DNA of 63,010 bases, filler included, from an uncultured bacterium (GTDB lineage Bacteria; Hinthialibacterota; Hinthialibacteria; Hinthialibacterales; Hinthialibacteraceae), in assembly GCA_964449065.1 (NCBI GenBank). It is 2 parts of 2 records of this genome, joined end to end, with 100 filler letters (N's around TTAATTAATTAA, not from the genome) between each part and the next. Parts side by side here need not be neighbours in the genome. Positions count along the whole stretch, not along the records: positions 1 to 31,583 come from CAYVAZ010000014.1; 1 more part is not named here. One strand, 5' to 3'. The translations under genes and the position numbers were made by a program. Position 1 is the first letter of the stretch. Every line of letters starts with the position of its first letter. The notes under the pieces were generated by a model. The model was not told the DNA's origin. It made no database searches and saw nothing but the letters and a program-made list of their open reading frames with translations. Below are positions 21,168 through 29,735 of the stretch, one piece after another.

Positions 21168-22145
21168 ATGCGAAAAAAGAGGGTGTTGCTAGAGTTGGGA
21201 ATTGTTTCTTTTGTATTGATGTTATTGCTGTGGATTTTTGTGCCCAAGTTTTTGGGTTCACAGCGGATTGACCTGATGAGAGAATTCCCTGACCCAACTG
21301 TTAGAAGCATAGTGGCGCATAAATTTGGAGTGGATGAGAATTCATCCATTTCAATCAGACAAGCACAAGAATTCACTGGAACATTGGATATTGTAAACCA
21401 TCCGAATGACTTAACCGGTTTGCACCATTTCCCAAACTTGGAATGGATCAATATCAGTTCCGACAATCTGATGGAAATTAATTTATCGAAATTGCCCAAT
21501 TTGGAGCATTTGCGTTTCAGTGGGGCAAATCTTGTACGATTAGTGACAAAACATAACTCAAAACTGAAAGAGGTTTCTATAAATAGCAGTCATTTTGAAA
21601 TCCCGGCGCAAATTCCTGAATTTGATTTTTCTCAAAATCCAAATCTTGTAAAACTCACAATTATCAATTTTTACTTAGAAGAAATTGATCTTTCCACTTT
21701 ATCTAACCTTTATCATTTGGATTTATCCAACTCATACCATTATTATGGAAAAACCGGAAAATCCATCAAACGGGGATTAACCAAACTGGATCTTAGCAAA
21801 AACCCGAAATTGAAGCATTTGCGAATCAATTCTAATAAACTAAAACATCTTGACCTTTCACATACCCCGCTTTTACGTGAAGTGAACTGCGGAATGAATG
21901 AATTGGAATCGATTAAATTATCAAATTCTAAAAAATTACGCTCTTTGTATTGTTTTTTTAATCATCTGACAACCCTGAACTTTTCTGCATGTAAAGAAAT
22001 AAATAAAATTCTTTGCAACGATAATCAATTGGAAACCATTGTGTTTGGCAACAACAAATATTTAAGTGAATTGGTTTGCACCAACAACCAAATCAAAGAA
22101 CTCGATCAAAATATTTTGAAAGGGTTAACCCTTTTCAAACGGTAG
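21168..22145 (+). CDS. Membrane-anchored leucine-rich repeat protein
   Basis: N-terminal TM helix; FPD cap; repeated LxxLDLSxNxxLxxL; AT-rich. Confidence 0.85.
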   Translation: MRKKRVLLELGIVSFVLMLLLWIFVPKFLGSQRIDLMREFPDPTVRSIVAHKFGVDENSSISIRQAQEFTGTLDIVNHPNDLTGLHHFPNLEWINISSDNLMEINLSKLPNLEHLRFSGANLVRLVTKHNSKLKEVSINSSHFEIPAQIPEFDFSQNPNLVKLTIINFYLEEIDLSTLSNLYHLDLSNSYHYYGKTGKSIKRGLTKLDLSKNPKLKHLRINSNKLKHLDLSHTPLLREVNCGMNELESIKLSNSKKLRSLYCFFNHLTTLNFSACKEINKILCNDNQLETIVFGNNKYLSELVCTNNQIKELDQNILKGLTLFKR

Positions 22146-22384
22146 GAACCCCACAGAAAGGTTTTAATCTTCCAGAATAACAATTGTGAAGTCATAAGAT
22201 AGATTGAAGAAAAAATGGATTTTCCAAGAAGATATTTTGAAGAAATCATCGCCGATATTATAGAGATGAGTTATGGTGACAATTCCCTGCAATTTTACAC
22301 TTTATCATAGGCGAGTGGTGAGTTGCGCTTCGCTTTGATCCCATCAATTTCTACAAGTCATTTCCCTTATTGGATTTTACTTCT

Positions 22385-22524
22385 TATACTAGGTTGCAAA
22401 AAGATAGTTAGTAATTCCATCTTTGATTTTGTAGGGGCAACCCCCAGTGGTTACCCCACAGCAGGGCATCCCCTACAATCGTACGGCAATTTATATATAA
22501 CATGTTTACTACAACTTGGTATTA
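22385..22524. mobile_element. MITE-like element carrying a GTAG-type REP pair
   Basis: Ends TATACTAGGTTGCAA and TACAACTTGGTATTA; internal GTAGGGGCAACCCC...CCCCTAC. Confidence 0.6.
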
Positions 22525-22570
22525 TATCAGAACAATTCCACACGCTTTCCACAAATTCCCGCAATTGTTC

Positions 22571-22685
22571 TCAAGTCGGAAATTTAACTACCGATACTTT
22601 GAACCAGACATTCGCATATGGCCTTGAGGATCAAGGCGGCGGATGTTGGAAAAAAGTTTTAAGATCGATTTTTATGTGCCGATAA
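22571..22685 (+). promoter_or_regulatory. Tandem sigma28 (FliA)-type promoters
   Basis: TCAAG-N14-ACCGATAC (22571-22597) and TTAAG-N14-GCCGATAA (22659-22685), upstream of flagellin 1. Confidence 0.75.
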
Positions 22686-22877
22686 AATGTATCGGCTGTG
22701 GTATTAGACCACAGGGTTCAGGGGTGGAACAGCCGTTAGGCTCAGGATGAGCCGCCCGGAGTCGAGGATACCGGAACGACGGCAAAACATCTCAATGCAG
22801 GTACAGGGAAGGATGACCCGGTACCGCAAACAACCTGACAGGATGTCGGGCTGCAACGTATCACGGAGGATACAACC
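22621..22877 (+). promoter_or_regulatory. Flagellin leader with multiple CsrA-type GGA hairpins
   Basis: GCCTTG-AGGAT-CAAGGC, GGCTC-AGGAT-GAGCC and CCTGAC-AGGAT-GTCGGG; ACGGAGGA at the SD. Confidence 0.75.
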
Positions 22878-25430
22878 ATGAGCATCACACGCATTAATAA
22901 CAATGTCTCTGCCATTCGAGCGGGGATCAATCTCAACCGGACCAGCCGGGATCTCACCAAAAATATCGAGAAACTCTCTTCGGGGCTGCGGATTAACCGG
23001 GCCGGCGATGACGCGGCAGGGTTAACCGTCCGCGAACGGCTGCGTACGCAAATCCGGGGGACCAACCAAGCGATTCAAAACGCGCAAAACGGAATCAGCA
23101 TGGTCAATACCTCGGAAGCGGCGCTGGACGCCTTGGTTTCCAGCCTGCAGCGGATTCGCGAACTCGCCATCGCCGCCGGGAACACCGGAAGCAACGACCC
23201 GGAATCCATCTTGGCGATTCAAGAAGAGGTTTTTCAACAGGTCGATGAGGTCAACCGCATCGCGACAACCGCGCGGTTCAGTACCCGTCTTCTCTTCACC
23301 GGTGACAACGCGGTTAACTCCGATATCCGCGCGGGACAAGACGAGGTGGGCGTTCGCATCAGCAACGACCCCAACGCCAGTTCCATGAGTTCCGGTACCT
23401 CCATTCTAAATGTCATCCAAACCCAAAAAGGCCAAGAAAACCTTTTACCCTTTAAAAATGAAAACGGACAAGCCGTCTTCGCGACTGGTATTGCCGATTC
23501 CACCGATATATCCGTTTCCACCGATCAGTTCATCCGCAGCGGCAACTCCGTAACCGCTGGCGATCCACTTGCAGCATTAACATTCGGTGGCGTATCCATC
23601 AGTCAAAACAACATCATCACCTTTCAAGGTGTATTATCCGATGGGAAAACACCCTTTGCCGGCGCATTGAGTGTGACAAACGCGGGCGGGGCGCAATCCA
23701 TGCAGGCGCTGCTCAGCACCATTCAAACCGCGATTGACAATGCGGAAACCACACTGTTTGGCGGGGTCGCTGCCGATATACCGGGTGACTTTATTCAAAC
23801 TCATGTCAGTTTGGGAGCGCCAGGCGGGACGGTTTCGGTTGGATCCGGCCGGATCAAATTTTTTGGCGCATCCGCCGAGGGTACCACCAATACCACATTA
23901 GCAGACGCAACCGATGGGCCGTCTCAGTTTAACATACAGTTCAACGTGATCGACAACGCGGGGAACTTGAAACACAGTACCGAATCCACTCGTGATTTTG
24001 TAAACGGGGTCATGGTTGGCGGTCAAATCGGGAATATTGCGCAAGGGATCACTGGATCCACGTTTGATAGCGGAAACTTTAACATCGAAGTAACCGATGT
24101 TGTACCGCCCAGCCGCAGAACCACCGAAACGACTGTTCCGTTTCTGGATCGAAACGGCAGTATTTTTGATGCCACTTCTTCCCTGGCAAGCAGAGGATCC
24201 ATCAACGGGACGACGATCAATGGAAACTATACGTTAAGTGATAAAGGGATCAACTTTGCCGCCGGAGATAAGGTTCAAATTGATGGAACCAACGCGGACG
24301 GGTCTACCTTTTCAGCAGTGTTTACACTGCAGAACAGCGGTGACACCGATACAAACTTGGGAGACTTCCAGTTTGCCACGTTATCCGGCCTGATTGCGGA
24401 ACTGAACTTTCGGGACCGCACGGTTGGCAGCCGGAACCCGAACGAACCTCAGTTCTTCACGGATTCGAAGGTGCAATTAACCGGAGAAGGAACCCTGCGG
24501 CTGATAGACGATGAAGCCAAAACCTCATCCTCTTCTCTCTTTATGAAGGTCATTGACAATGATACAACCCGAACCGTATCTGACCGGGCGGAACTGATTG
24601 TGGATGGAACGGAAGAACAAGCCAGTATTTCAATCAACGGCGGGCCGCGGCAGCGGGTTACGGTAGGCGATCAAGTTACTCTGTTTGGTCCGAAACCCAC
24701 CGTGTTCGGCGAAAGCACACCGCAAATTTCGTTTCGCGTGGGAGCAGGCTTCCGGGAAAATTTAGCGGATTCCATCTTTACTAACGGATCGGATACAGCC
24801 GAGATCGTGGCGCAGGAATTTGTCGGTTCTCTCAACGGGGGCACAGAGGTAACGTTTCAAAACGGGGATCAAAATGTCTTTTTTGAAAGCGGTTCGGCCT
24901 TTGGTGTGGCGGAAACACTGCGAATGGATTTTGACGCGGTCTTGGATATCACCGGCCCGCCGAATGATGGTTCTTCCAACACAGGGCGCGCCATATTGAT
25001 TTCAACCGTCAACAATGCCATCAACTTCCAAATCGGACCGTTTGCAGGGCAAAACCTGCTGATGAATATACCCGACATGCGCGGGGATAACCTCGGATTC
25101 GGGCGGGGCAGCGGACGCACCATCTCGACCATCAACGTCACTTCGGTTGAAGGTGTGAATGAGGCATTGGCCATCATCGACCGCGCCCTGGACCAGGTGA
25201 GCCGTACCCGGTCGCAGCTGGGCGCGATTACCAACCGGATGGAGACCACGATCGACAGTCTGTCGGTGGCGTCCGAGAACCTGACATCGTCGGAATCCTT
25301 GCTGAGCGATGTGGATATCGCCAAAGAAACATCGGAATTCACATCGAATCAGATCATCTTCCAAGCGGGAACTTCGGTTCTATCGCAGGCGAACCTGCTG
25401 CCGCAGGGACTGTTATCGCTACTTGGATAA
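22878..25430 (+). CDS. fliC: Flagellin 1 (850 aa, large variable region)
   Basis: RINNNVSA...KLSSGLRINRAGDDAAG N-terminus; RSQLGAITNR...SVLSQAN..PQGLLSLLG C-terminus. Confidence 0.96.
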   Translation: MSITRINNNVSAIRAGINLNRTSRDLTKNIEKLSSGLRINRAGDDAAGLTVRERLRTQIRGTNQAIQNAQNGISMVNTSEAALDALVSSLQRIRELAIAAGNTGSNDPESILAIQEEVFQQVDEVNRIATTARFSTRLLFTGDNAVNSDIRAGQDEVGVRISNDPNASSMSSGTSILNVIQTQKGQENLLPFKNENGQAVFATGIADSTDISVSTDQFIRSGNSVTAGDPLAALTFGGVSISQNNIITFQGVLSDGKTPFAGALSVTNAGGAQSMQALLSTIQTAIDNAETTLFGGVAADIPGDFIQTHVSLGAPGGTVSVGSGRIKFFGASAEGTTNTTLADATDGPSQFNIQFNVIDNAGNLKHSTESTRDFVNGVMVGGQIGNIAQGITGSTFDSGNFNIEVTDVVPPSRRTTETTVPFLDRNGSIFDATSSLASRGSINGTTINGNYTLSDKGINFAAGDKVQIDGTNADGSTFSAVFTLQNSGDTDTNLGDFQFATLSGLIAELNFRDRTVGSRNPNEPQFFTDSKVQLTGEGTLRLIDDEAKTSSSSLFMKVIDNDTTRTVSDRAELIVDGTEEQASISINGGPRQRVTVGDQVTLFGPKPTVFGESTPQISFRVGAGFRENLADSIFTNGSDTAEIVAQEFVGSLNGGTEVTFQNGDQNVFFESGSAFGVAETLRMDFDAVLDITGPPNDGSSNTGRAILISTVNNAINFQIGPFAGQNLLMNIPDMRGDNLGFGRGSGRTISTINVTSVEGVNEALAIIDRALDQVSRTRSQLGAITNRMETTIDSLSVASENLTSSESLLSDVDIAKETSEFTSNQIIFQAGTSVLSQANLLPQGLLSLLG

Positions 25431-25479
25431 TAAGCACAAATTAGAGGTTACCTGAATTGCTGTTCATCTAATGATAAAC

Positions 25480-25513
25480 GGGGTGGGATGACACCAGCTC
25501 TGCCTCCCACCCC
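25480..25513 (+). terminator. GC-rich hairpin after flagellin 1 (no U-tract)
   Basis: GGGGTGGGA...TCCCACCCC, 9-bp stem. Confidence 0.5.
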
Positions 25514-25613
25514 AACTGAACAACCGAAGCAGTTGAAGTGATATAACAGATATTTAGAACTGTATATCGATTTAAGGCAGGTGTAGAACCGTACGCAAAA
25601 ACATGATCACAAA

Positions 25614-25629
25614 CGGCACGGGTTGTGCA
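25614..25629 (+). promoter_or_regulatory. Putative sigma54 (-24/-12) promoter
   Basis: CGGCACG-GGTT-GTGCA, with GG-N10-GC spacing and two mismatches to TGGCACG-N4-TTGCW. An imperfect palindrome lies upstream at about 25540-25568. Confidence 0.5.
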
Positions 25630-25997
25630 GCGTCCGCAAGGAAATGAAAAGGACGCAATGCATGGAATGCCAGGAATGCTTGAGGACAATCAAAATCCCC
25701 AGGAAGGGAAAGAAAGATAAGGATTGAACGGGCAACGCTAAAACGGGTATGAAAATCCAGGTACGGAGATTGATAAAAATACATTTGGAAAAAACCGAAC
25801 GGATGGACGCACCGGCTGGAAGTCGATGCTCCCTAACGATGAACCGAAATGTTGAGCAGTTGTCAAACGTCTGTTGGATTTGAAAGGACGGGGCTGCTGC
25901 CGGGCCGGAAGTACCGTTCGATTTCATCAGAACATAGTTTTGGTAATCATTATAGATATTTGAATGAACACAGCAAAACCGAAAGGAGGTCTGGACT

Positions 25998-26096
25998 ATG
26001 AAGTTAAAAGAACTCCACCACGTTGTAGAACATTTTAGCAAGAAGATGTTTCGCAAAATGCGGCGCCGAGTGGGATCTACATTGGCATTTGCCTAG
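25998..26096 (+). CDS. Candidate 32-aa basic small protein MKLKELHHVVEHFSKKMFRKMRRRVGSTLAFA
   Basis: AAAGGAGGT SD 7 nt before ATG 25998; TAG at 26094-26096. Confidence 0.4.
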   Translation: MKLKELHHVVEHFSKKMFRKMRRRVGSTLAFA

Positions 26097-27102
26097 CTCG
26101 AGTGAAAGCAATCATGGCAAAGGCACGGTAAGCCACCGGCTGAGTATCAATGCGGATAGACGGATCAATGCGGGAGGTGCGACCCTGGATTGATCCGGAA
26201 TATACAAGGAGTAATTCGATGGTGCGAATCGAACGTGGTCTCATAGAATCCATCCGGCAGAACGTTGTTCTTCCTCCTTCTCCCGGACGGTTTTGGACGC
26301 TCCTTAGCTTATCCAACCCGGTACTTGGCCATTGCGGAACTTTATAGAGATGGGAGGGTTTTCGGTGAGAATTGTGATCAATCATTCAACCGGTACAACA
26401 ACAAGGAATCAAATTATGCGCAATATTCCTTCACCGGAAGCCCTCCTCTCATTCCTGCTGAAAGCGAAAGAATCGCTGGATCAGAACCATGGCTGTACCC
26501 CTGAATATGACGGGATCGAGGCGTTTTGTATCCGTGCGTATCGAAAACATATAGTTGAACAGTACCGGTTTCATTAAGGGAATACTAAGGATGGATAGGT
26601 TTGTTCCGCCTCCATCAGCCGGAACGATTTTTGGAATGCATACAGACATGTGAGGTCGATCAACAAGATTTGCGTTGCTGGATCAACCGGTGCGTAAATC
26701 TCAAAAACGCGAATGCAAAGGTTTGTTTTCATATAAACACTATGAGTCAAACACAATGGAGGTTTAACGTCATACAACCAACATAGCCTGCCCGCACTGG
26801 AACGGTGCATCAGGTTGACCCCCTGAAGTAAGGCAGGAGAGACTCCACGAGAGTTTGGTCTGGTGACCCTAGACACAAGTTTTATCTGGTAACAGTGGCT
26901 GCTTACGTGTTGCTTACAGCACCCAATCTGTAGCGGCACGCGCAGACATGAACATAAATACGTAAGACATACCACTCGCGCCGGTATAGCGAAGAGTGTG
27001 CCGGGGTGCTTCACTCGACATCCCGGCATACGCACTCTTCGTGACAGCACCCAAGCACATGCTGGCGAAAGTGAATGTCTCCGTAAAACGCAGGATTTAA
27101 TA

Positions 27103-27138
27103 ACCGGCACGGAAGCCGGTAACCCATTACACGGAGGT
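27103..27138 (+). promoter_or_regulatory. CsrA-type hairpin plus a GGA site overlapping the SD of flagellin 2
   Basis: ACCGGC-ACGGAA-GCCGGT followed by ACGGAGGT. Confidence 0.75.
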
Positions 27139-27143
27139 TTGCC

Positions 27144-29675
27144 ATGAGTATCACCAGAATCAACAACAATGTGGCGGCTCTCAATGCGAATAAGAATTTG
27201 GATCGAACAGGGCGTTCGCTTCAAAAGAACATTGAGAGACTGTCGTCCGGTTTGCGAATTAACCGGGCAGGAGACGACGCGGCGGGGATGACCATTGCCA
27301 CGCGGCTGCGTTCTCAAGTACGTGGATTGGACCGTGCGATCATGAACGCTCAGGACGGGGTCAACTTGATCACCGTAGCCGAGGGCGCCATGGATGAAAT
27401 GACACGGCGGTTGGACCGGATGCGTGTGCTTGCCGTACAAGCCGCGAACACCGGGGTCAACGACTTTGCCGCACGCCAAGCCATTCAGGATGAAGTATTT
27501 CAAAGTATCGACGAGATCACTCGAATCGCCGAGACGACCCAGTTCAGCAAGAACCGATTGCTGAATGGAGATTTCAAAGTTGACTCGCAAATTAAACCGG
27601 GTCAAGACGGAATCCAAAACTTTGGGATCAATATTGATCAAGGTCCCAGTTCGAGCACGTTGGAAAACGGACAAAGTTTTCTGAACATTGTCAAAACCAA
27701 GGAAGGCTTTCAACAGCTGATCCCTGGTTTGGATGCCAACGGGCAATCGCGCACCATGCATTTGGGTGTAAACGACGCATCCGACATTGCGGTTTCGCTG
27801 GGCTTCTTTAGCGATGGCGCCTTGTTCGGAGGTACCGGAACCACCGGTGCGGACACGCTGGGTGGGGAATTTTTTAACGGTGTGTCGATTGCGGCCCAAG
27901 GCGGGAACTTCGATGTCTTTTCATTTGACGGTGTGCTGGCTGATGGTGTCACCAAGTTTAACGGAACGCTCAGCCTCACGGGCGGCTCGACGATGACGGA
28001 CCTTTTATCCGCGGTCAATGCGGCTATTGACAACGCGGAGTTTAATCTCTTCGGCGTCTCTTCGTCCGCCAGTGTTCCCACCTCTTTCCAAACGAACGTG
28101 TCCATCGGAGCCGGTTCCAATGGCGGACGGCTGCTGCTCTTCGGGTCTGCCGAAACCGTAAACTTATCCAGCATTGATATACGCTTGCTGCGCGGCAACA
28201 CCCTTGTCACCCAAGCCCAAGGGGTTACCCGCTCCGGTGAAATCGGCACGAACTCCGCTCTCAATGGTGTCGGGCAGATCGGCAATTCGACTACCGCCAT
28301 AACCGGCTCGACCTTTGGAGCAGGCGAGTTTGCCATCCAAGTGGAAGATGTGCAGGGGCCGCAAAACCGGACGTTAAAAAGCACCATTCCTTTGTTTAAT
28401 CAAAACGGCTCCGTGCTGGACCGCACCGCTTCTCTCACCAGCGGGGTACGAGGTCTGAATTTAAACGGGACGTTTGTCGGCGGCATTTATACCGGCGGTA
28501 CTTCGATATCCGGCGGGGATACCGTGACGTTACGCGGTGTGGAAGCCGATGGGACTACGTTTGAATCGACATTCACGTTTTCAAACGCAGCTTCCACAGA
28601 TACCGTACTGAACGATTTTCAATTTGCCTCCATTAGCGGATTGATCAGCGAATTAAACTTTCGCACGCGGGATTATACAGTGAACACGGAAGATGGAAAC
28701 AAATCCCGGTTTGAATCGGCATTGTTTACGCTAGCTGCGGATGGACGGCTACAATTAATTGATGATTTAGCCCGCGATAATTCTCAATTGAATTTTACCC
28801 TTACCTTTAATGACAGCACGTCTTCGGCAACGCCTGCCTTCACCATTGCCGATAAAGGAGAACTGCTGAAAGAAGGGTTTGCCGAATCCGCCACGTTCCG
28901 GTTGGGTGGCGGTCCAGCCGTGCGGGCAGTCGCCGGAGAGCAAATCACTCTGTTTGGGGAAGAAGAGACAATCCCCGGTGTGGTTCAACAAAAAGTCACG
29001 CTGCGGGTTGGAACCAATCTGGTCGCGGGGACGGATTTCATTGCTGTTGAAAACGATGAATTTGTCGGACGTTTGAACGGAGGGCCGGAGGTTACCTTCC
29101 AAAACGGGGCCCAGGATGTGGTGTTTATCGACGATGGCAGTTTTCAATCCGGTGTGGCCCGAACCCTTCAAGTCGATTTTGACGATGTGCTGGATATTAC
29201 CCGTGACCCGAACAACTTCCCGGATGCAGGAACCACGGTTGTGATCTCTACCGTCAACCGGTCGATGAACTTCCAGATCGGTGCATTTGCCGGTCAAAAC
29301 TTTCGCACCAGTATAGGCGATTTAACTTCGCGAAACTTAGGGTTCGGAGCGGGGAGCGGCCGAACCGTCGAAAACATCGATGTGCGCTCGGTAGAAGGCG
29401 CCAACGAAGCACTGCGTATCATCGACGAAGCGTTAGAGCAAATCAACCGGACGCGGTCGCTCTTGGGTGCCGCCACCAACCGCTTGGAAGGAACAATATC
29501 CAACTTAACCGTATCGTCCGAAAACTTGTTGGCATCGGAATCCCGCTTGCGGGATGCGGATATAGCGAGAGAGTCAACCGAATTCTCGAAGAATCAGATT
29601 CTCTTGCAGGCTTCGACATCGGTCTTGGCTCAGGCCAACCTCATCCAGCAAAACTTCCTGTCACTTCTGGGATAA
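27144..29675 (+). CDS. fliC: Flagellin 2 (843 aa, large variable region)
   Basis: Conserved flagellin N-terminus (LSSGLRINRAGDDAAG) and C-terminus (ASESRLRDADIA...VLAQAN). Confidence 0.96.
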   Translation: MSITRINNNVAALNANKNLDRTGRSLQKNIERLSSGLRINRAGDDAAGMTIATRLRSQVRGLDRAIMNAQDGVNLITVAEGAMDEMTRRLDRMRVLAVQAANTGVNDFAARQAIQDEVFQSIDEITRIAETTQFSKNRLLNGDFKVDSQIKPGQDGIQNFGINIDQGPSSSTLENGQSFLNIVKTKEGFQQLIPGLDANGQSRTMHLGVNDASDIAVSLGFFSDGALFGGTGTTGADTLGGEFFNGVSIAAQGGNFDVFSFDGVLADGVTKFNGTLSLTGGSTMTDLLSAVNAAIDNAEFNLFGVSSSASVPTSFQTNVSIGAGSNGGRLLLFGSAETVNLSSIDIRLLRGNTLVTQAQGVTRSGEIGTNSALNGVGQIGNSTTAITGSTFGAGEFAIQVEDVQGPQNRTLKSTIPLFNQNGSVLDRTASLTSGVRGLNLNGTFVGGIYTGGTSISGGDTVTLRGVEADGTTFESTFTFSNAASTDTVLNDFQFASISGLISELNFRTRDYTVNTEDGNKSRFESALFTLAADGRLQLIDDLARDNSQLNFTLTFNDSTSSATPAFTIADKGELLKEGFAESATFRLGGGPAVRAVAGEQITLFGEEETIPGVVQQKVTLRVGTNLVAGTDFIAVENDEFVGRLNGGPEVTFQNGAQDVVFIDDGSFQSGVARTLQVDFDDVLDITRDPNNFPDAGTTVVISTVNRSMNFQIGAFAGQNFRTSIGDLTSRNLGFGAGSGRTVENIDVRSVEGANEALRIIDEALEQINRTRSLLGAATNRLEGTISNLTVSSENLLASESRLRDADIARESTEFSKNQILLQASTSVLAQANLIQQNFLSLLG

Positions 29676-29697
29676 AGTGAGGTTCAGTAGTATGAGG

Positions 29698-29735
29698 TTC
29701 AGGGGAGGGAGCGCCGCCCTCCCCTGAATGCTTTT
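29698..29735 (+). terminator. Probable intrinsic terminator
   Basis: TTCAGGGGAGGG/CCCTCCCCTGAA 12-bp stem followed by TGCTTTT. Confidence 0.65.

What the first reader, a model, noticed from the sequence alone, without database searches (positions are those of the whole stretch)
25640..27143. Candidate ~1.5-kb highly structured RNA between the two flagellins (top candidate for a new system)
Seen: 1.7 kb without a credible long gene in a gene-dense genome and, unlike other spacers here, free of REP/MITE repeats. Stems tile almost the whole length: CATAGTTT 25933/GGACTATG 25993; GAACATTTT/AAGATGTTT 26028-26051; CGGATCAAT 26161/ATTGATCCG 26189; a 16-bp helix GGAGGGTTTTCGGTGA 26353/TCACCGGAAGCCCTCC 26431 with two G-U pairs; GATGGA 26590/TCCATC 26611; GTTTG..TTCATA 26721/TATGAG.CAAAC 26741; and long hairpins at 26906-26940 and 26990-27041. 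The G-U pairs work only on the + strand, which points to RNA-level structure. I saw no internal terminator or closer sigma28 promoter before flagellin 2. Inference: a giant leader or ncRNA that combines CsrA sequestration, small ORFs and a translational switch to control flagellin 2. I cannot match it to any RNA family I know.
Basis: partly seen in the sequence, partly recalled or inferred. Interest (0 to 1): 0.9.

Follow-up and report, generated by a model that had tools for sequence, protein, structure and literature searches.

The report
Modular RNA leader between two flagellins
The 1.7-kb gap between two giant flagellin genes is not one giant folded RNA but a string of conserved RNA hairpin modules and a tiny protein gene, ending in a docking site of the kind used by the flagellin repressor CsrA, and probably controls production of the second flagellin.

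Summary
The gap (25431-27143) is real: no long gene, no Rfam match, and no sigma-28 promoter, although flagellin 1 has a textbook one. Two claims fail. The gap holds dispersed repeats (25791-25959). As a whole it folds no better than the flanking coding sequence (mean z -1.02 against -0.97).

Comparison with 19 genomes of the same family shows that the long spacer (1.3-2.4 kb) between flagellin 1 and 2 is conserved. About 44% of it consists of sense-strand modules:
- T1: a hairpin after flagellin 1.
- sORF1: a 32-codon gene with a coding signature.
- M: hairpins with GUGCGA loops and an invariant UUCUUCCUCC loop.
- N: a three-way junction.
- P: a leader with a hairpin carrying an invariant UCACUCGAC loop, a GGA-loop hairpin and a GGA over the ribosome-binding site.

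M, N, H5 and P show compensatory changes. fliW and csrA lie side by side in the genome.

Best reading: a long multi-module flagellin-2 leader, or the intercistronic part of a flagellin 1-2 transcript, with CsrA/FliW control at its end and new upstream modules of unknown role. No RNA data exist, so the transcript is inferred.

The parts
22659..22685 (+). Sigma-28-type promoter of flagellin 1 (TTAA-N15-GCCGATAA). It serves as the positive control for the promoter scan and is a possible source of a read-through transcript.
   Evidence: A sigma-28-type motif (at most 2 mismatches in all) lies within 600 nt upstream of flagellin 1 in 15 of 15 genomes; in 14 of them one lies at -218 to -256 from the ATG (G007 only at -341).
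25480..25513 (+). T1: GC-rich hairpin 50 nt after the flagellin-1 stop (GGGGTGGGA / TCCCACCCC, with GCTCTGCC in the loop). It has no U-tail.
   Evidence: Alignment of 15 spacers: the stem changes on both sides (GGGGCGGGGA/TCCCCGCCCC, GGGGTGGAGA/TCTCCACCCC, GGGGCAGGGA/TCCCTGCCCC) and the loop GCTCCGCC is kept. The terminator scan does not call it.
25640..25725 (+). Purine-rich tract with 8 GGA motifs in 85 nt (AAGGA, CAGGA, AUGGA contexts). Possible extra CsrA sites; status open.
   Evidence: 46 GGA against 23 TCC in the whole spacer, with 8-9 GGA per 150 nt here. Composition skew. Not at a conserved place in relatives.
25791..25959 (.). Two dispersed repeat units (about 25791-25847 and 25852-25959), MITE/REP-like, probably inserted. 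Not part of the conserved system.
   Evidence: 40 other matches in the own genome. Alignment with 7 copies. Extra contigs pile up here in runs X1 and X2.
25985..26096 (+). sORF1: GGAGG ribosome-binding site (25985-25989), ATG at 25998, 32 codons, stop at 26094-26096. The peptide MKLKELHHVVEHFSKKMFRKMRRRVGSTLAFA is basic, with a conserved C-terminal L-A-[YF]-x.
   Evidence: Found in 10 of 15 spacers with a ribosome-binding site and the same length. Differences between pairs fall mostly on third codon positions (3/2/11 and 12/7/21) and are synonymous only in this frame (11-14 against 0-1). A profile search of 1.84 billion representatives gives 7 hits: 6 of 31-33 aa (one called as 77 aa) and 1 repetitive 1893-aa protein.
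26158..26305 (+). Module M. P1: 26161-26174 / 26184-26197, loop AGGUGCGAC. P2: 26215-26220 / 26228-26233, loop GGUGCGA. P3: 26242-26262 / 26278-26295, whose loop holds the invariant UUCUUCCUCC (26268-26277).
   Evidence: Model R1: one match per genome in 19 of 20 family genomes, always between flagellin 1 and 2 on the sense strand, and 0 of 15 other genomes of the class. 83.5% of cells are paired against 34-43% with slid partners; 29 of 34 pairs have changes on both sides. Apparent ORFs across it are in different frames in different genomes.
26352..26447 (+). It pairs a GGAGG with a CCCUCC.
   Evidence: A purine block 75-114 nt after the M core (75-81 nt in 11 of the 14 genomes that have one) finds a near-perfect partner downstream, 64-96 nt further on in 9 of the 14. 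At most 7 of 300 shuffles do as well in 11 of those 14. RNAalifold on 9 sequences gives 8 pairs, 6 with changes on both sides. Local z is -2.82.
26759..26880 (+). Module N, a three-way junction. Pa: 26787-26792 / 26832-26837. Pb: hairpin 26794-26808. Pc: 26810-26814 / 26822-26826 with loop GUUGACC (consensus YUGACUC). Conserved flanks ACGU..ACAUAR and CUGGUGA.
   Evidence: Model R2: 20 of 20 family genomes in the same spacer and 0 of 15 outside the family. Weaker N-like matches lie 120-250 nt upstream of other flagellin paralogues. 91.9% of cells paired against 32-50% slid; 14 of 17 pairs changed on both sides. A ~90%-identical relative in run X3 carries T26810C together with A26826G, a compensatory pair in Pc.
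26906..27052 (+). Upstream half of leader P. Hairpin 26914-26921 / 26930-26936 presents ACAGCACCC. P-H0: 26969-26973 / 26983-26987, loop ACUCGCGCC. P-H1: 26996-27008 / 27019-27031, with the invariant loop UCACUCGA(C); in this genome it extends to 26990-27041. Second ACAGCACCC at 27044-27052.
   Evidence: Alignments. P-H1: 87.8% of cells paired against 34-45% slid, and 9 of 13 pairs changed on both sides. Model R3: one copy upstream of flagellin 2 in 19 of 20 family genomes. Also found upstream of a flagellin in a sister family. Folding z is -3.7 and -6.4.
27103..27146 (+). CsrA-type operator. Hairpin P-H2: ACCGGC / GCCGGU (27103-27108 / 27115-27120) with loop ACGGAA (GGA at 27111-27113). Then CACGGAGG (27130-27137), the ribosome-binding site, and the flagellin-2 ATG at 27144.
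   Evidence: In 19 aligned leaders the stem covaries (pair 244-261: UA 8, GC 6; pair 245-260: CG 8, UA 6), while the GGA of the loop and GGAGG are kept in all. The flagellin-1 leaders have the same two-site layout. fliW and csrA are adjacent in the own genome.

Best explanation
The spacer is a composite post-transcriptional control region on the flagellin sense strand, conserved across one family of an uncultivated lineage. In order it holds:
- a hairpin after flagellin 1 (T1);
- a translated 32-codon gene (sORF1);
- a three-hairpin module (M) whose last loop is an invariant pyrimidine stretch resembling the anti-Shine-Dalgarno sequence;
- a long helix (H5) that locks a GGAGG against a CCCUCC;
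- a three-way junction (N);
- a proximal leader (P) with a hairpin of invariant loop, a GGA-loop hairpin and a GGA over the ribosome-binding site.

Most likely all of this from sORF1 onwards, or everything after T1, is carried on the RNA that also encodes flagellin 2. That RNA is either a leader of about 1.15 kb or the intercistronic part of a transcript started at the sigma-28 promoter of flagellin 1 that reads through T1.

Translation of flagellin 2 would be held off by CsrA on the two GGA sites and released when FliW, freed from secreted flagellin, captures CsrA. This is the known partner switch.

The upstream modules would add further inputs: sORF1 translation melting the hairpin at its stop codon, the M loop and H5 competing for GGAGG sequences, and N binding an unknown factor.

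Shown: the modules, their covariation, their strand, their single-copy syntenic distribution, the coding signature of sORF1, and the presence of csrA and fliW.

Inferred: the transcript, CsrA binding, and every role of M, H5, N and sORF1.
For: SYNTENY
- Flagellin 1, a long spacer, then flagellin 2 on one contig in 14 relatives. Spacers are 1275-2387 nt.

MODULES
- M: 19 of 20 family genomes, one copy each. The missing genome has only 679 nt of contig upstream of flagellin 2. Covariation.
- N: 20 of 20. Covariation. A compensatory pair in a ~90% relative from another study.
- H5: 11 of 14 genomes with a purine block beat their shuffles; 6 of 8 pairs are compensatory.
- P-H1 and P-H2 covary while their loops are invariant.
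- U-G and G-U pairs are frequent in all modules (for example UG 5 of 19 at two M pairs; UG 6 of 20 in N). This fits the + strand only.

sORF1
- Coding signature and lineage-restricted homologues.

CsrA/FliW
- CsrA (93.2 bits) and FliW (137.2 bits) are encoded side by side.
- The partner switch and GGA-hairpin recognition are described in PMC4894983, PMC6529632 and PMC13443453. I saw abstracts in search listings only.

PROMOTER
- No sigma-28 motif at a conserved place in any of 15 spacers at the threshold that finds one upstream of flagellin 1 in 15 of 15.
- T1 lacks a U-tail, whereas the similar hairpin after flagellin 2 has one.
Against: - No RNA data: no listed run holding the stretch is RNA, so neither the transcript nor its ends are known. 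A promoter of another type inside the spacer cannot be excluded. I could only scan for sigma-28, sigma-54 and sigma-70 consensus.
- More than half of the spacer is unconserved. Module spacing varies by hundreds of bases, which also fits separately made small RNAs.
- M and N do not fold better than shuffles in this genome (z +0.32 and -0.46).
- The anti-Shine-Dalgarno idea is weak here. The M loop matches the flagellin-2 start region over 9 nt in 7 of 15 genomes but only 5 nt in this one, and 3-35% of other spacer windows pair as well. Both partners are invariant, so covariation cannot test it.
- The alignments for M and N were fitted to the models, which inflates pair counts somewhat.
- sORF1 was not found by my filter in 5 of 15 spacers.
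Confidence: 0.6

Rival explanations
1. M with H5 (about 26158-26447), perhaps together with sORF1, is a separate small or dual-function RNA made from its own promoter or cut out of the flagellin-1 3' region. It acts in trans: its pyrimidine loop pairs with GGAGG ribosome-binding sites of flagellin or other mRNAs. Only N and P are the flagellin-2 leader.
For: - The M loop UUCUUCCUCC is invariant in all 19 copies.
- Its consensus UUCCUCCGU is the exact complement of ACGGAGGAA at the flagellin-2 start in 7 of 15 genomes.
- Model positions 97-117 of R1 weakly match the antisense of start regions of flagellin paralogues, E 0.2-0.9.
- The M-to-N distance varies by hundreds of bases.
- N-like elements occur upstream of paralogues without M, and P occurs in a sister family without M or N. 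The modules therefore have separable histories.
- UTR-derived flagellar small RNAs are known (PMC10578931, PMC11187230; abstracts in a listing).
Against: - No promoter or terminator was found around M.
- H5 has no U-tail.
- Complementarity in this genome is 5 nt, no better than 30% of control windows.
- M is strictly tied to one position next to flagellin 2. That fits a cis role as well.
Confidence: 0.22
2. One reading: one giant (~1.5 kb) highly structured non-coding RNA or leader, folded over almost its whole length, comparable to the large ornate bacterial RNAs.
For: - Five covarying modules lie on one strand in a fixed order over about 1.15 kb.
- The 3' half folds better than shuffles on the + strand only: z -5.98 against -2.41.
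- A ~90% relative keeps most of 25968-27292 at an identity like that of the coding flanks.
Against: - Only about 44% of the spacer is conserved. The rest differs in length and sequence among relatives.
- It includes dispersed repeats.
- It holds a translated small gene.
- Mean local folding z equals that of coding sequence.
- No long-range pairs between modules were found.
- No Rfam large-RNA family matches.
Confidence: 0.08
3. The conserved blocks act at the DNA level (operator or enhancer sites for a regulator of flagellin 2, or recombination sites) or are remnants of a decayed gene, and the RNA structures are incidental.
For: - The promoter of flagellin 2 is unknown, so some conserved blocks could be promoter or operator DNA. 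Candidates are the twice-repeated ACAGCACCC at 26918-26926 and 27044-27052.
- Long stop-free frames cover M in several relatives.
Against: - Stems change on both sides while loops stay fixed. G-U pairs are common, which DNA palindromes do not need.
- The frames over M shift between genomes and the flanking 'protein' is unconserved.
- tblastn of the flagellins against the spacer gives a best E of 1.2.
- No Pfam match.
Confidence: 0.05

Closest known systems
CsrA-FliW-flagellin partner switch on the flagellin mRNA leader (Bacillus subtilis hag; Campylobacter jejuni flaA 5' UTR)
   Same: - A GGA in a hairpin loop about 20 nt upstream of a second GGA that overlaps the ribosome-binding site.
- fliW and csrA are adjacent in the genome.
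- The same two-site layout stands in front of both flagellin genes.
   Different: - Here the operator is only the last ~45 nt of a conserved region of more than 1 kb, with a small gene and four further structured modules.
- No sigma-28 promoter stands in front of flagellin 2.
- CsrA binding is not shown.
UTR-derived flagellar small RNAs (E. coli FliX from the fliC 3' UTR, MotR, UhpU, FlgO; C. jejuni CJnc230/CJnc170)
   Same: Regulatory RNA encoded next to or downstream of a flagellin gene within the flagellar regulon. This is one possible origin for M/H5 (papers seen as abstracts in the listing).
   Different: No sequence or structure likeness (Rfam negative). No evidence here of a discrete processed RNA. 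The modules are family-restricted.
Small RNAs with C/U-rich anti-Shine-Dalgarno loops (for example staphylococcal RNAIII and RsaE, alphaproteobacterial 'cuckoo' RNAs; recalled, not looked up)
   Same: An invariant pyrimidine loop (UUCUUCCUCC), complementary to GGAGG ribosome-binding sites, presented on a conserved stem.
   Different: A single such loop. Complementarity to the flagellin-2 start is only 5 nt in this genome and statistically unremarkable. Action in trans is not shown.
Large ornate non-coding RNAs (OLE, GOLLD, ROOL, HEARO; families that I recall as being in Rfam; no call listed the library's families)
   Same: A long non-coding stretch with several conserved helices, found only in uncultivated or unusual lineages.
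   Different: No match to any of 4227 Rfam models. Conservation is in separate modules split by variable sequence and a translated small gene. It sits in a fixed cis position in front of a gene.
Phage lambda N peptide with boxB hairpins (arginine-rich peptide bound to a repeated hairpin loop; recalled)
   Same: A small Arg/Lys-rich peptide gene lies directly upstream of two to three hairpins that share one conserved purine-rich loop (GUGCGA).
   Different: Pure analogy: no homology, no binding test, no antitermination evidence.

Membership tests
CsrA-repressed flagellin leader (hag/flaA type) | GGA motif in the loop of a hairpin shortly upstream of the ribosome-binding site | tested here: met
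   ACCGGC-ACGGAA-GCCGGU at 27103-27120. GGA is kept in 19 of 19 aligned leaders while the stem covaries.
CsrA-repressed flagellin leader (hag/flaA type) | Second GGA overlapping the Shine-Dalgarno sequence | tested here: met
   CACGGAGG at 27130-27137. GGAGG is invariant in 19 of 19.
CsrA-repressed flagellin leader (hag/flaA type) | Genome encodes CsrA and its antagonist FliW | tested here: met
   PF02599 at 93.2 bits and PF02623 at 137.2 bits, adjacent on contig C11 at 21670-22374.
CsrA-repressed flagellin leader (hag/flaA type) | CsrA binds the leader and represses translation; FliW relieves it | not testable with these tools
   Needs binding and reporter assays.
Any Rfam family (including c-di-GMP riboswitches, flg-Rhizobiales, CsrB/Rsm, OLE/GOLLD/ROOL) | Covariance-model score at or above the family's gathering score | tested here: not met
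   Best match in the spacer is 17.9 bits against a gathering score of 90 (mir-610, chance). Nothing but a tRNA in 5 relatives' loci.
CsrB/RsmZ-type CsrA sponge RNA | Many GGA motifs, mostly in hairpin loops, on a discrete conserved transcript with its own promoter and terminator | tested here: inconclusive
   8 GGA in 85 nt at 25640-25725, and 46 GGA against 23 TCC in the spacer. The tract is not at a conserved place in relatives. No promoter or terminator was found. No transcript data.
Intrinsic (Rho-independent) terminator, for T1 | GC-rich hairpin followed directly by a U-tract | tested here: not met
   The hairpin is present and covaries, but AACUGAAC follows it and the scan does not call it. 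The similar hairpin after flagellin 2 (29697-29729) is called, with a U-rich tail.
Sigma-28 (FliA) class-3 promoter in front of flagellin 2 | TAAA-N14-16-GCCGATAA at a conserved place upstream | tested here: not met
   Allowing at most 2 mismatches in the -10 element and 1 in the -35 (up to 3 in all), 9 of 15 spacers have no hit, none of the hits in the other 6 lies at a conserved place, and the one in this genome overlaps the covarying GGA hairpin. The control, upstream of flagellin 1 at most 2 mismatches in all, is found in 15 of 15.
Protein-coding small ORF (sORF1) | Conserved frame, ribosome-binding site, and substitutions biased to synonymous, third-position changes | tested here: met
   10 of 15 spacers. 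Synonymous/nonsynonymous codon differences are 11/4 and 14/13 in frame, against 0-1 synonymous in the other frames. Homologues of 31-33 aa have been called in public data.
Single large structured non-coding RNA | Contiguous conservation and structure over most of the length, with long-range pairs | tested here: not met
   759 of 1713 nt lie in modules. Unconserved variable linkers. Mean folding z equals that of coding sequence.

The most novel reading that the evidence does not exclude
The region from sORF1 to flagellin 2 is one RNA 'control hub' built around a peptide-RNA pair. In this reading the Arg/Lys-rich 32-aa product of sORF1 binds the repeated GUGCGA hairpin loops of M that follow its own stop codon, as lambda N binds boxB. 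That binding decides whether the invariant pyrimidine loop or the 3' arm of H5 captures the GGAGG. This in turn sets read-through or translation into flagellin 2, while the three-way junction N, shared with other flagellin leaders, senses a further ligand or protein. It would be a flagellar feedback device with no described counterpart, layered on top of CsrA/FliW.
Probability: 0.1. Interest if true: 0.85.

Novelty: new variant of a known kind. Interest (0 to 1): 0.6.

Why it matters
Flagellin is among the most costly proteins a bacterium makes, and the CsrA-FliW switch is the only widely conserved translational control known for it. In this uncultivated lineage, which has giant (about 850-aa) flagellins in several copies, the second flagellin gene sits behind more than a kilobase of conserved RNA modules and a conserved micro-protein gene, and none of them is in any family library.

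The work gives four new covarying RNA motifs (M, H5, N, P-H1) and a new small-protein family. Each has exact coordinates and a search model, and each is tied to a gene of known function, so they can be tested directly with reporter fusions, binding assays and metatranscriptomes.

It also shows that long spacers between flagellin genes, seen repeatedly in this scan, can hold layered regulators rather than junk or simple CsrA decoys.

Tried and rejected
- RNA evidence: the look-up of sequencing runs listed no RNA holder. All laid runs are DNA contigs. The ~90% relative in run X3 has no contig over 25570-25865 or 26532-26605, and nothing can be concluded from these holes.
- More relatives: the metagenome scan with flagellin 2 returned only one family member, identical over N to a genome already held. 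The genome-contig scan added none with M or N. The phylum as held has the same 35 genomes as the class.
- Sigma-54 consensus: no conserved hit in 15 spacers. The sigma-70 scan is no better than shuffles: 10 found against 7.9 expected.
- A decayed flagellin or other gene: rejected.
- 'sORF2', a frame that starts with a ribosome-binding site just before M and reads through it in several relatives: rejected as a conserved protein. The frame shifts in G000, G006 and G007, and the sequence outside M is unconserved.
- The 70-81-aa frame inside and after H5 (26332/26366-26577): no Pfam match and no match in relatives' spacers.
- A long inverted repeat between T1 and sORF1, seen in some relatives (ATCGNCGNTTCAAG ... 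CGTTGAATCGNCGAT): only its 5' half is recognisable here (about 25563-25577). It may be split by the repeat insertion. Not pursued.
- M loop as a specific anti-Shine-Dalgarno for flagellin 2: suggestive in relatives, not significant here.
- Function of sORF1: NCBIfam gave 0 families. The protein atlas gave only unnamed clusters, with scores at most 0.92.
- Earlier notes of this scan on this genome: none.
- Literature: a search for Omnitrophota plus flagellin found 8 papers (5 listed), none on such an RNA by title or abstract. I did not read any paper beyond its listing.
- Not tried: complex prediction and structure prediction. No protein-protein claim is made.
Full report
WHAT IS THERE

The window's first 31583 bases are one contig of a 5.2-Mb, 87%-complete metagenome-assembled genome. 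Two flagellin genes of 850 and 843 codons lie head to tail on the + strand: 22878-25430 and 27144-29675. The 1713 bases between them (25431-27143) hold no long gene. The longest sense ORF has 81 codons. None of 10 ORFs tested reaches a Pfam cut-off. tblastn of both flagellins against the spacer gives nothing better than E 1.2.

Rfam has no match, either here (best in the spacer 17.9 bits against a gathering score of 90) or in five relatives' loci. The closest named record found with flagellin 2 is titled as a Candidatus Omnitrophota MAG. The phylum as held in the genome collection has only 35 species, so I leave the phylum name open.

CHECKING THE OBSERVATION

Two of its general statements fail.
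- The spacer is not free of dispersed repeats. Positions 361-417 and 422-529 of the spacer (window about 25791-25959) match 40 other places in the genome. The longer unit aligns with seven other copies as a ~100-nt element.
- The spacer as a whole is not unusually structured. With 150-nt windows and 60 dinucleotide shuffles each, the 31 spacer windows have mean z -1.02 on the + strand, against -0.97 for 25 windows of flanking flagellin coding sequence. Five windows reach z <= -2 in each set. Only 26900-27099 stands out (z -3.7 and -6.4).
- For whole halves (20 shuffles), the 3' half folds better on the + strand (z -5.98 against -2.41) and the 5' half does not (z -1.36 against -2.21).

- No terminator-like site lies on the + strand of the spacer.
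- No sigma-28 promoter lies before flagellin 2. The only near-match overlaps a covarying hairpin.
- The test can see such promoters. Flagellin 1 has TTAA-N15-GCCGATAA at 22659-22685, and a sigma-28 motif lies within 600 nt upstream of the flagellin-1 orthologue in 15 of 15 genomes. None of the 15 spacers has one at a conserved place. A sigma-54 consensus is not conserved either.

RELATIVES

All 20 genomes of the family have close homologues of flagellin 2. In 14 relatives flagellin 1 and flagellin 2 lie on one contig in the same order and orientation, separated by 1275-2387 nt. The long spacer is therefore itself conserved.

By blastn, only the last ~170-290 nt before the flagellin-2 start, plus one stretch after flagellin 1, are alike between this genome and the relatives. 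Comparisons among the relatives exposed further blocks, which structure-aware models then found in this genome too.

MODULE M (26158-26305)

- Two hairpins have covarying stems and the loop GGUGCGA. P2 is 26215-26233.
- A long bulged helix, P3, follows. Its loop holds the invariant UUCUUCCUCC at 26268-26277.
- A covariance model built on 14 sequences (R1) finds exactly one match per genome in 19 of 20 family genomes. Each lies between flagellin 1 and 2 on the sense strand, and five of these genomes were not used to build the model.
- The one genome without a match has only 679 nt of contig upstream of flagellin 2.
- None of 15 other genomes of the class has it.
- On the 19 aligned copies, 83.5% of pair cells are standard pairs, against 34-43% when partners are slid. 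29 of 34 pairs change on both sides, and no shuffle of 500 reaches the observed values. That alignment was fitted to the model, which favours it somewhat.
- Stop-free frames cross M in several relatives. The invariant nucleotides are read in different frames in G000, G006 and G007, and the flanking 'protein' is not conserved. The constraint is therefore on the nucleic acid.

HELIX H5 (26352-26368 WITH 26431-26447)

- In relatives, a purine block that in 11 of 14 genomes lies 75-81 nt after the M core finds a near-perfect partner downstream, 64-96 nt further on in 9 of the 14, with different sequences: for example GGUUCCUGA/UCAGGAACC and GGCCCUUGAA/UUUCAGGGGCC.
- In 11 of 14 genomes with such a block, at most 7 of 300 shuffled 18-mers pair as well. 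Three genomes fail and one has no block.
- RNAalifold on a plain MAFFT alignment of nine sequences recovers 8 pairs, 6 with changes on both sides.

MODULE N (26759-26880)

- It is a three-way junction: Pa CCUGCC/GGCAGG, a variable hairpin Pb, and Pc with loop YUGACUC, with conserved flanks.
- Model R2 finds it in the spacer of 20 of 20 family genomes and in none of 15 outside the family.
- Weaker N-like matches lie 120-250 nt upstream of other flagellin paralogues in at least six genomes.
- 91.9% of cells are paired against 32-50% slid, and 14 of 17 pairs change on both sides.
- Contigs of a ~90%-identical relative from a different study (run X3) show T26810C together with A26826G. This turns a U-A pair of Pc into C-G.

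LEADER P (26906-27143)

- A hairpin presents ACAGCACCC. The motif is repeated at 27044-27052.
- P-H0 has the loop ACUCGCGCC.
Its 13-bp stem covaries (87.8% paired against 34-45% slid; 9 of 13 pairs with double changes) around an invariant loop UCACUCGA. Model R3 finds one copy upstream of flagellin 2 in 19 of 20 family genomes. A sister-family genome has P-H1, the GGA hairpin and the same ribosome-binding site in front of a flagellin, without M or N.
- The last 45 nt are ACCGGC-ACGGAA-GCCGGU, then CACGGAGG, then ATG. This gives one GGA in a covarying hairpin loop and one over the Shine-Dalgarno sequence, both kept in 19 of 19 leaders.
- Flagellin-1 leaders have the same layout.
- The genome encodes FliW and CsrA side by side.
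- This is the architecture of the CsrA-FliW-flagellin switch (PMC4894983, PMC6529632, PMC13443453; abstracts in the listing only).

A SMALL GENE (sORF1, 25998-26096)

- It has 32 codons and GGAGG eight bases upstream of the start.
- It is present with the same length, a ribosome-binding site and a C-terminal L-A-[YF]-x in 10 of 15 spacers. My filter found none in G004, G016, G019, G006 or G007. By eye, G016 has a variant ending differently.
- Differences between pairs of genomes fall on third codon positions (3/2/11 and 12/7/21). They are synonymous in this frame only: 11-14 synonymous codon changes against 0-1 in the other frames.
- A profile search of 1.84 billion representative proteins finds 7 hits. 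Six are real, of 31-33 aa (one called as 77 aa), and one of them is about three quarters identical to this peptide by eye. The seventh is a repetitive 1893-aa protein.
- NCBIfam and the protein atlas give no name.
- In all 10 genomes the predicted fold puts a hairpin at or across the stop codon. In 4 of 10 that hairpin has a GUGCGA-type loop.

OTHER PIECES

- T1 (25480-25513) is a GC-rich hairpin 50 nt after the flagellin-1 stop. Its stem covaries and its loop GCUCCGCC is conserved in 15 spacers. It has no U-tail. The similar hairpin after flagellin 2 (29697-29729) has one.
- A purine tract at 25640-25725 holds 8 GGA in 85 nt. Its place is not conserved.
- The modules together cover 759 of 1713 nt.

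STRAND

G-U and U-G pairs are frequent in all modules, and the 16-bp helix has two. They would be mismatches on the other strand, so the structures belong to the flagellin sense strand.

HOW IT MOST LIKELY WORKS

Shown:
- an ordered set of sense-strand RNA structures and a translated micro-gene, conserved for as long as this family has existed, single-copy and fixed in front of flagellin 2;
- a CsrA-type two-site operator at the end;
- csrA and fliW in the genome;
- no recognisable promoter in the spacer.

Inferred:
- The modules ride on the flagellin-2 mRNA, either as a leader starting upstream of sORF1 or as the intercistronic part of a sigma-28 transcript that reads through the tail-less T1.
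- CsrA holds flagellin-2 translation off until FliW is freed.
- The upstream modules add inputs. Possible inputs are ribosomes finishing sORF1 opening the adjacent hairpin, the pyrimidine loop of M and the 3' arm of H5 competing for GGAGG sequences, and N (shared with other flagellin leaders) binding an unknown partner.

I put 0.6 on this overall reading. That the modules are real RNA elements I hold at about 0.9, and the CsrA operator at about 0.75.

The main rival (0.22) is that M/H5 is made or processed as a separate small RNA acting on ribosome-binding sites. The loop consensus UUCCUCCGU is the exact complement of the flagellin-2 start region in 7 of 15 genomes. In this genome, however, the match is 5 nt and no better than 30% of control windows. 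The weak antisense hits of R1 on paralogue start sites have E 0.2-0.9.

COMPARISON AND NOVELTY

The 3' end is a member-like instance of the known CsrA-regulated flagellin leader. Three sequence and genomic criteria are met; binding is untestable here. Everything upstream (M, H5, N, P-H1, sORF1) matches no library. It is restricted to one family, or for P-H1 to one order. It is new as a set of motifs.

As a kind of thing, a cis-regulatory leader with structured modules and a leader ORF, it is a new variant of a known kind rather than a new category.

Earlier notes of this scan describe GGA-rich or CsrA-type spacers between flagellins in other phyla. They are unchecked leads and were not tested here, but they suggest that elaborate inter-flagellin RNAs recur.

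LIMITS

- No RNA data.
- Only 20 family genomes, none of the same genus in the collection.
- Pair counts for M and N come from model-fitted alignments.
- The table of differences in the close relative was truncated (106 rows not shown). Conservation of M and P in that relative is known only as overall identity: 33 differences in 348 nt and 37 in 574 nt.
- No paper was read beyond its listing.

Noticed in passing
window 29697-29729 and 25480-25513: The hairpin after flagellin 2 and the one after flagellin 1 are the same kind of element (GGGGnGGG .. GCnCCGCC .. CCCnCCCC). Only the flagellin-2 copy is followed by a U-rich tail. A third look-alike half-site lies in the flagellin-1 leader at 22715-22735.
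   Followed up: partly
window 25640-25725: Purine-rich tract with 8 GGA motifs in 85 nt on the sense strand, several in small hairpins such as GCAU-GGA-AUGC. Possible CsrA decoy. Not positionally conserved in relatives and not covered by the close relative's contigs.
   Followed up: partly
window 25791-25959; copies such as G000:C153:11326-11421 and C150:1995-2090: Two dispersed repeat families with dozens of copies in the genome. The ~100-nt one has a conserved GGGAGGGCGAGGCUCCCGCCGAGCCGGAAGUACCGUUCGAUU core. It seems to have been inserted between the flagellin-1 hairpin and the small gene, which lengthens this genome's spacer.
   Followed up: partly
L033 1170-1288, L044 1205-1320, L035 4253-4371, L037 4274-4383 (relatives); L038 1254-1376 (own contig C95, weak): Weaker copies of the three-way-junction module N lie 120-250 nt upstream of other flagellin paralogues. 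N therefore looks like a general flagellin-leader element of this family.
   Followed up: partly
L194 4020-4220 (sister-family genome G021): A flagellin gene there is preceded by the UCACUCGG-loop hairpin, a GGCACGGAUGCC hairpin and UUCACGGAGG, but not by M or N. The proximal leader is therefore older than the upstream modules.
   Followed up: partly
relatives: fla2-fla3 spacers, for example G008:C30:43867-46121 and G006:C101:14143-16378: A third flagellin gene follows flagellin 2 after another spacer of ~2.2 kb in several relatives. These spacers were fetched but not analysed beyond the N-like hits.
   Followed up: no
window 22146-22877: The 730-nt region upstream of flagellin 1 holds the sigma-28 promoter about 190 nt before the ATG. 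Its leader has its own GGA hairpin (GACAGGAUGUC) and AUCACGGAGGAUAC. Many relatives have a second sigma-28-like motif 70-130 nt further upstream.
   Followed up: partly
window 31584-63010: Only the first 31583 bases of the window lie on the contig that holds the finding. The rest is N or another contig, so nothing beyond that point is linked to this locus.
   Followed up: no
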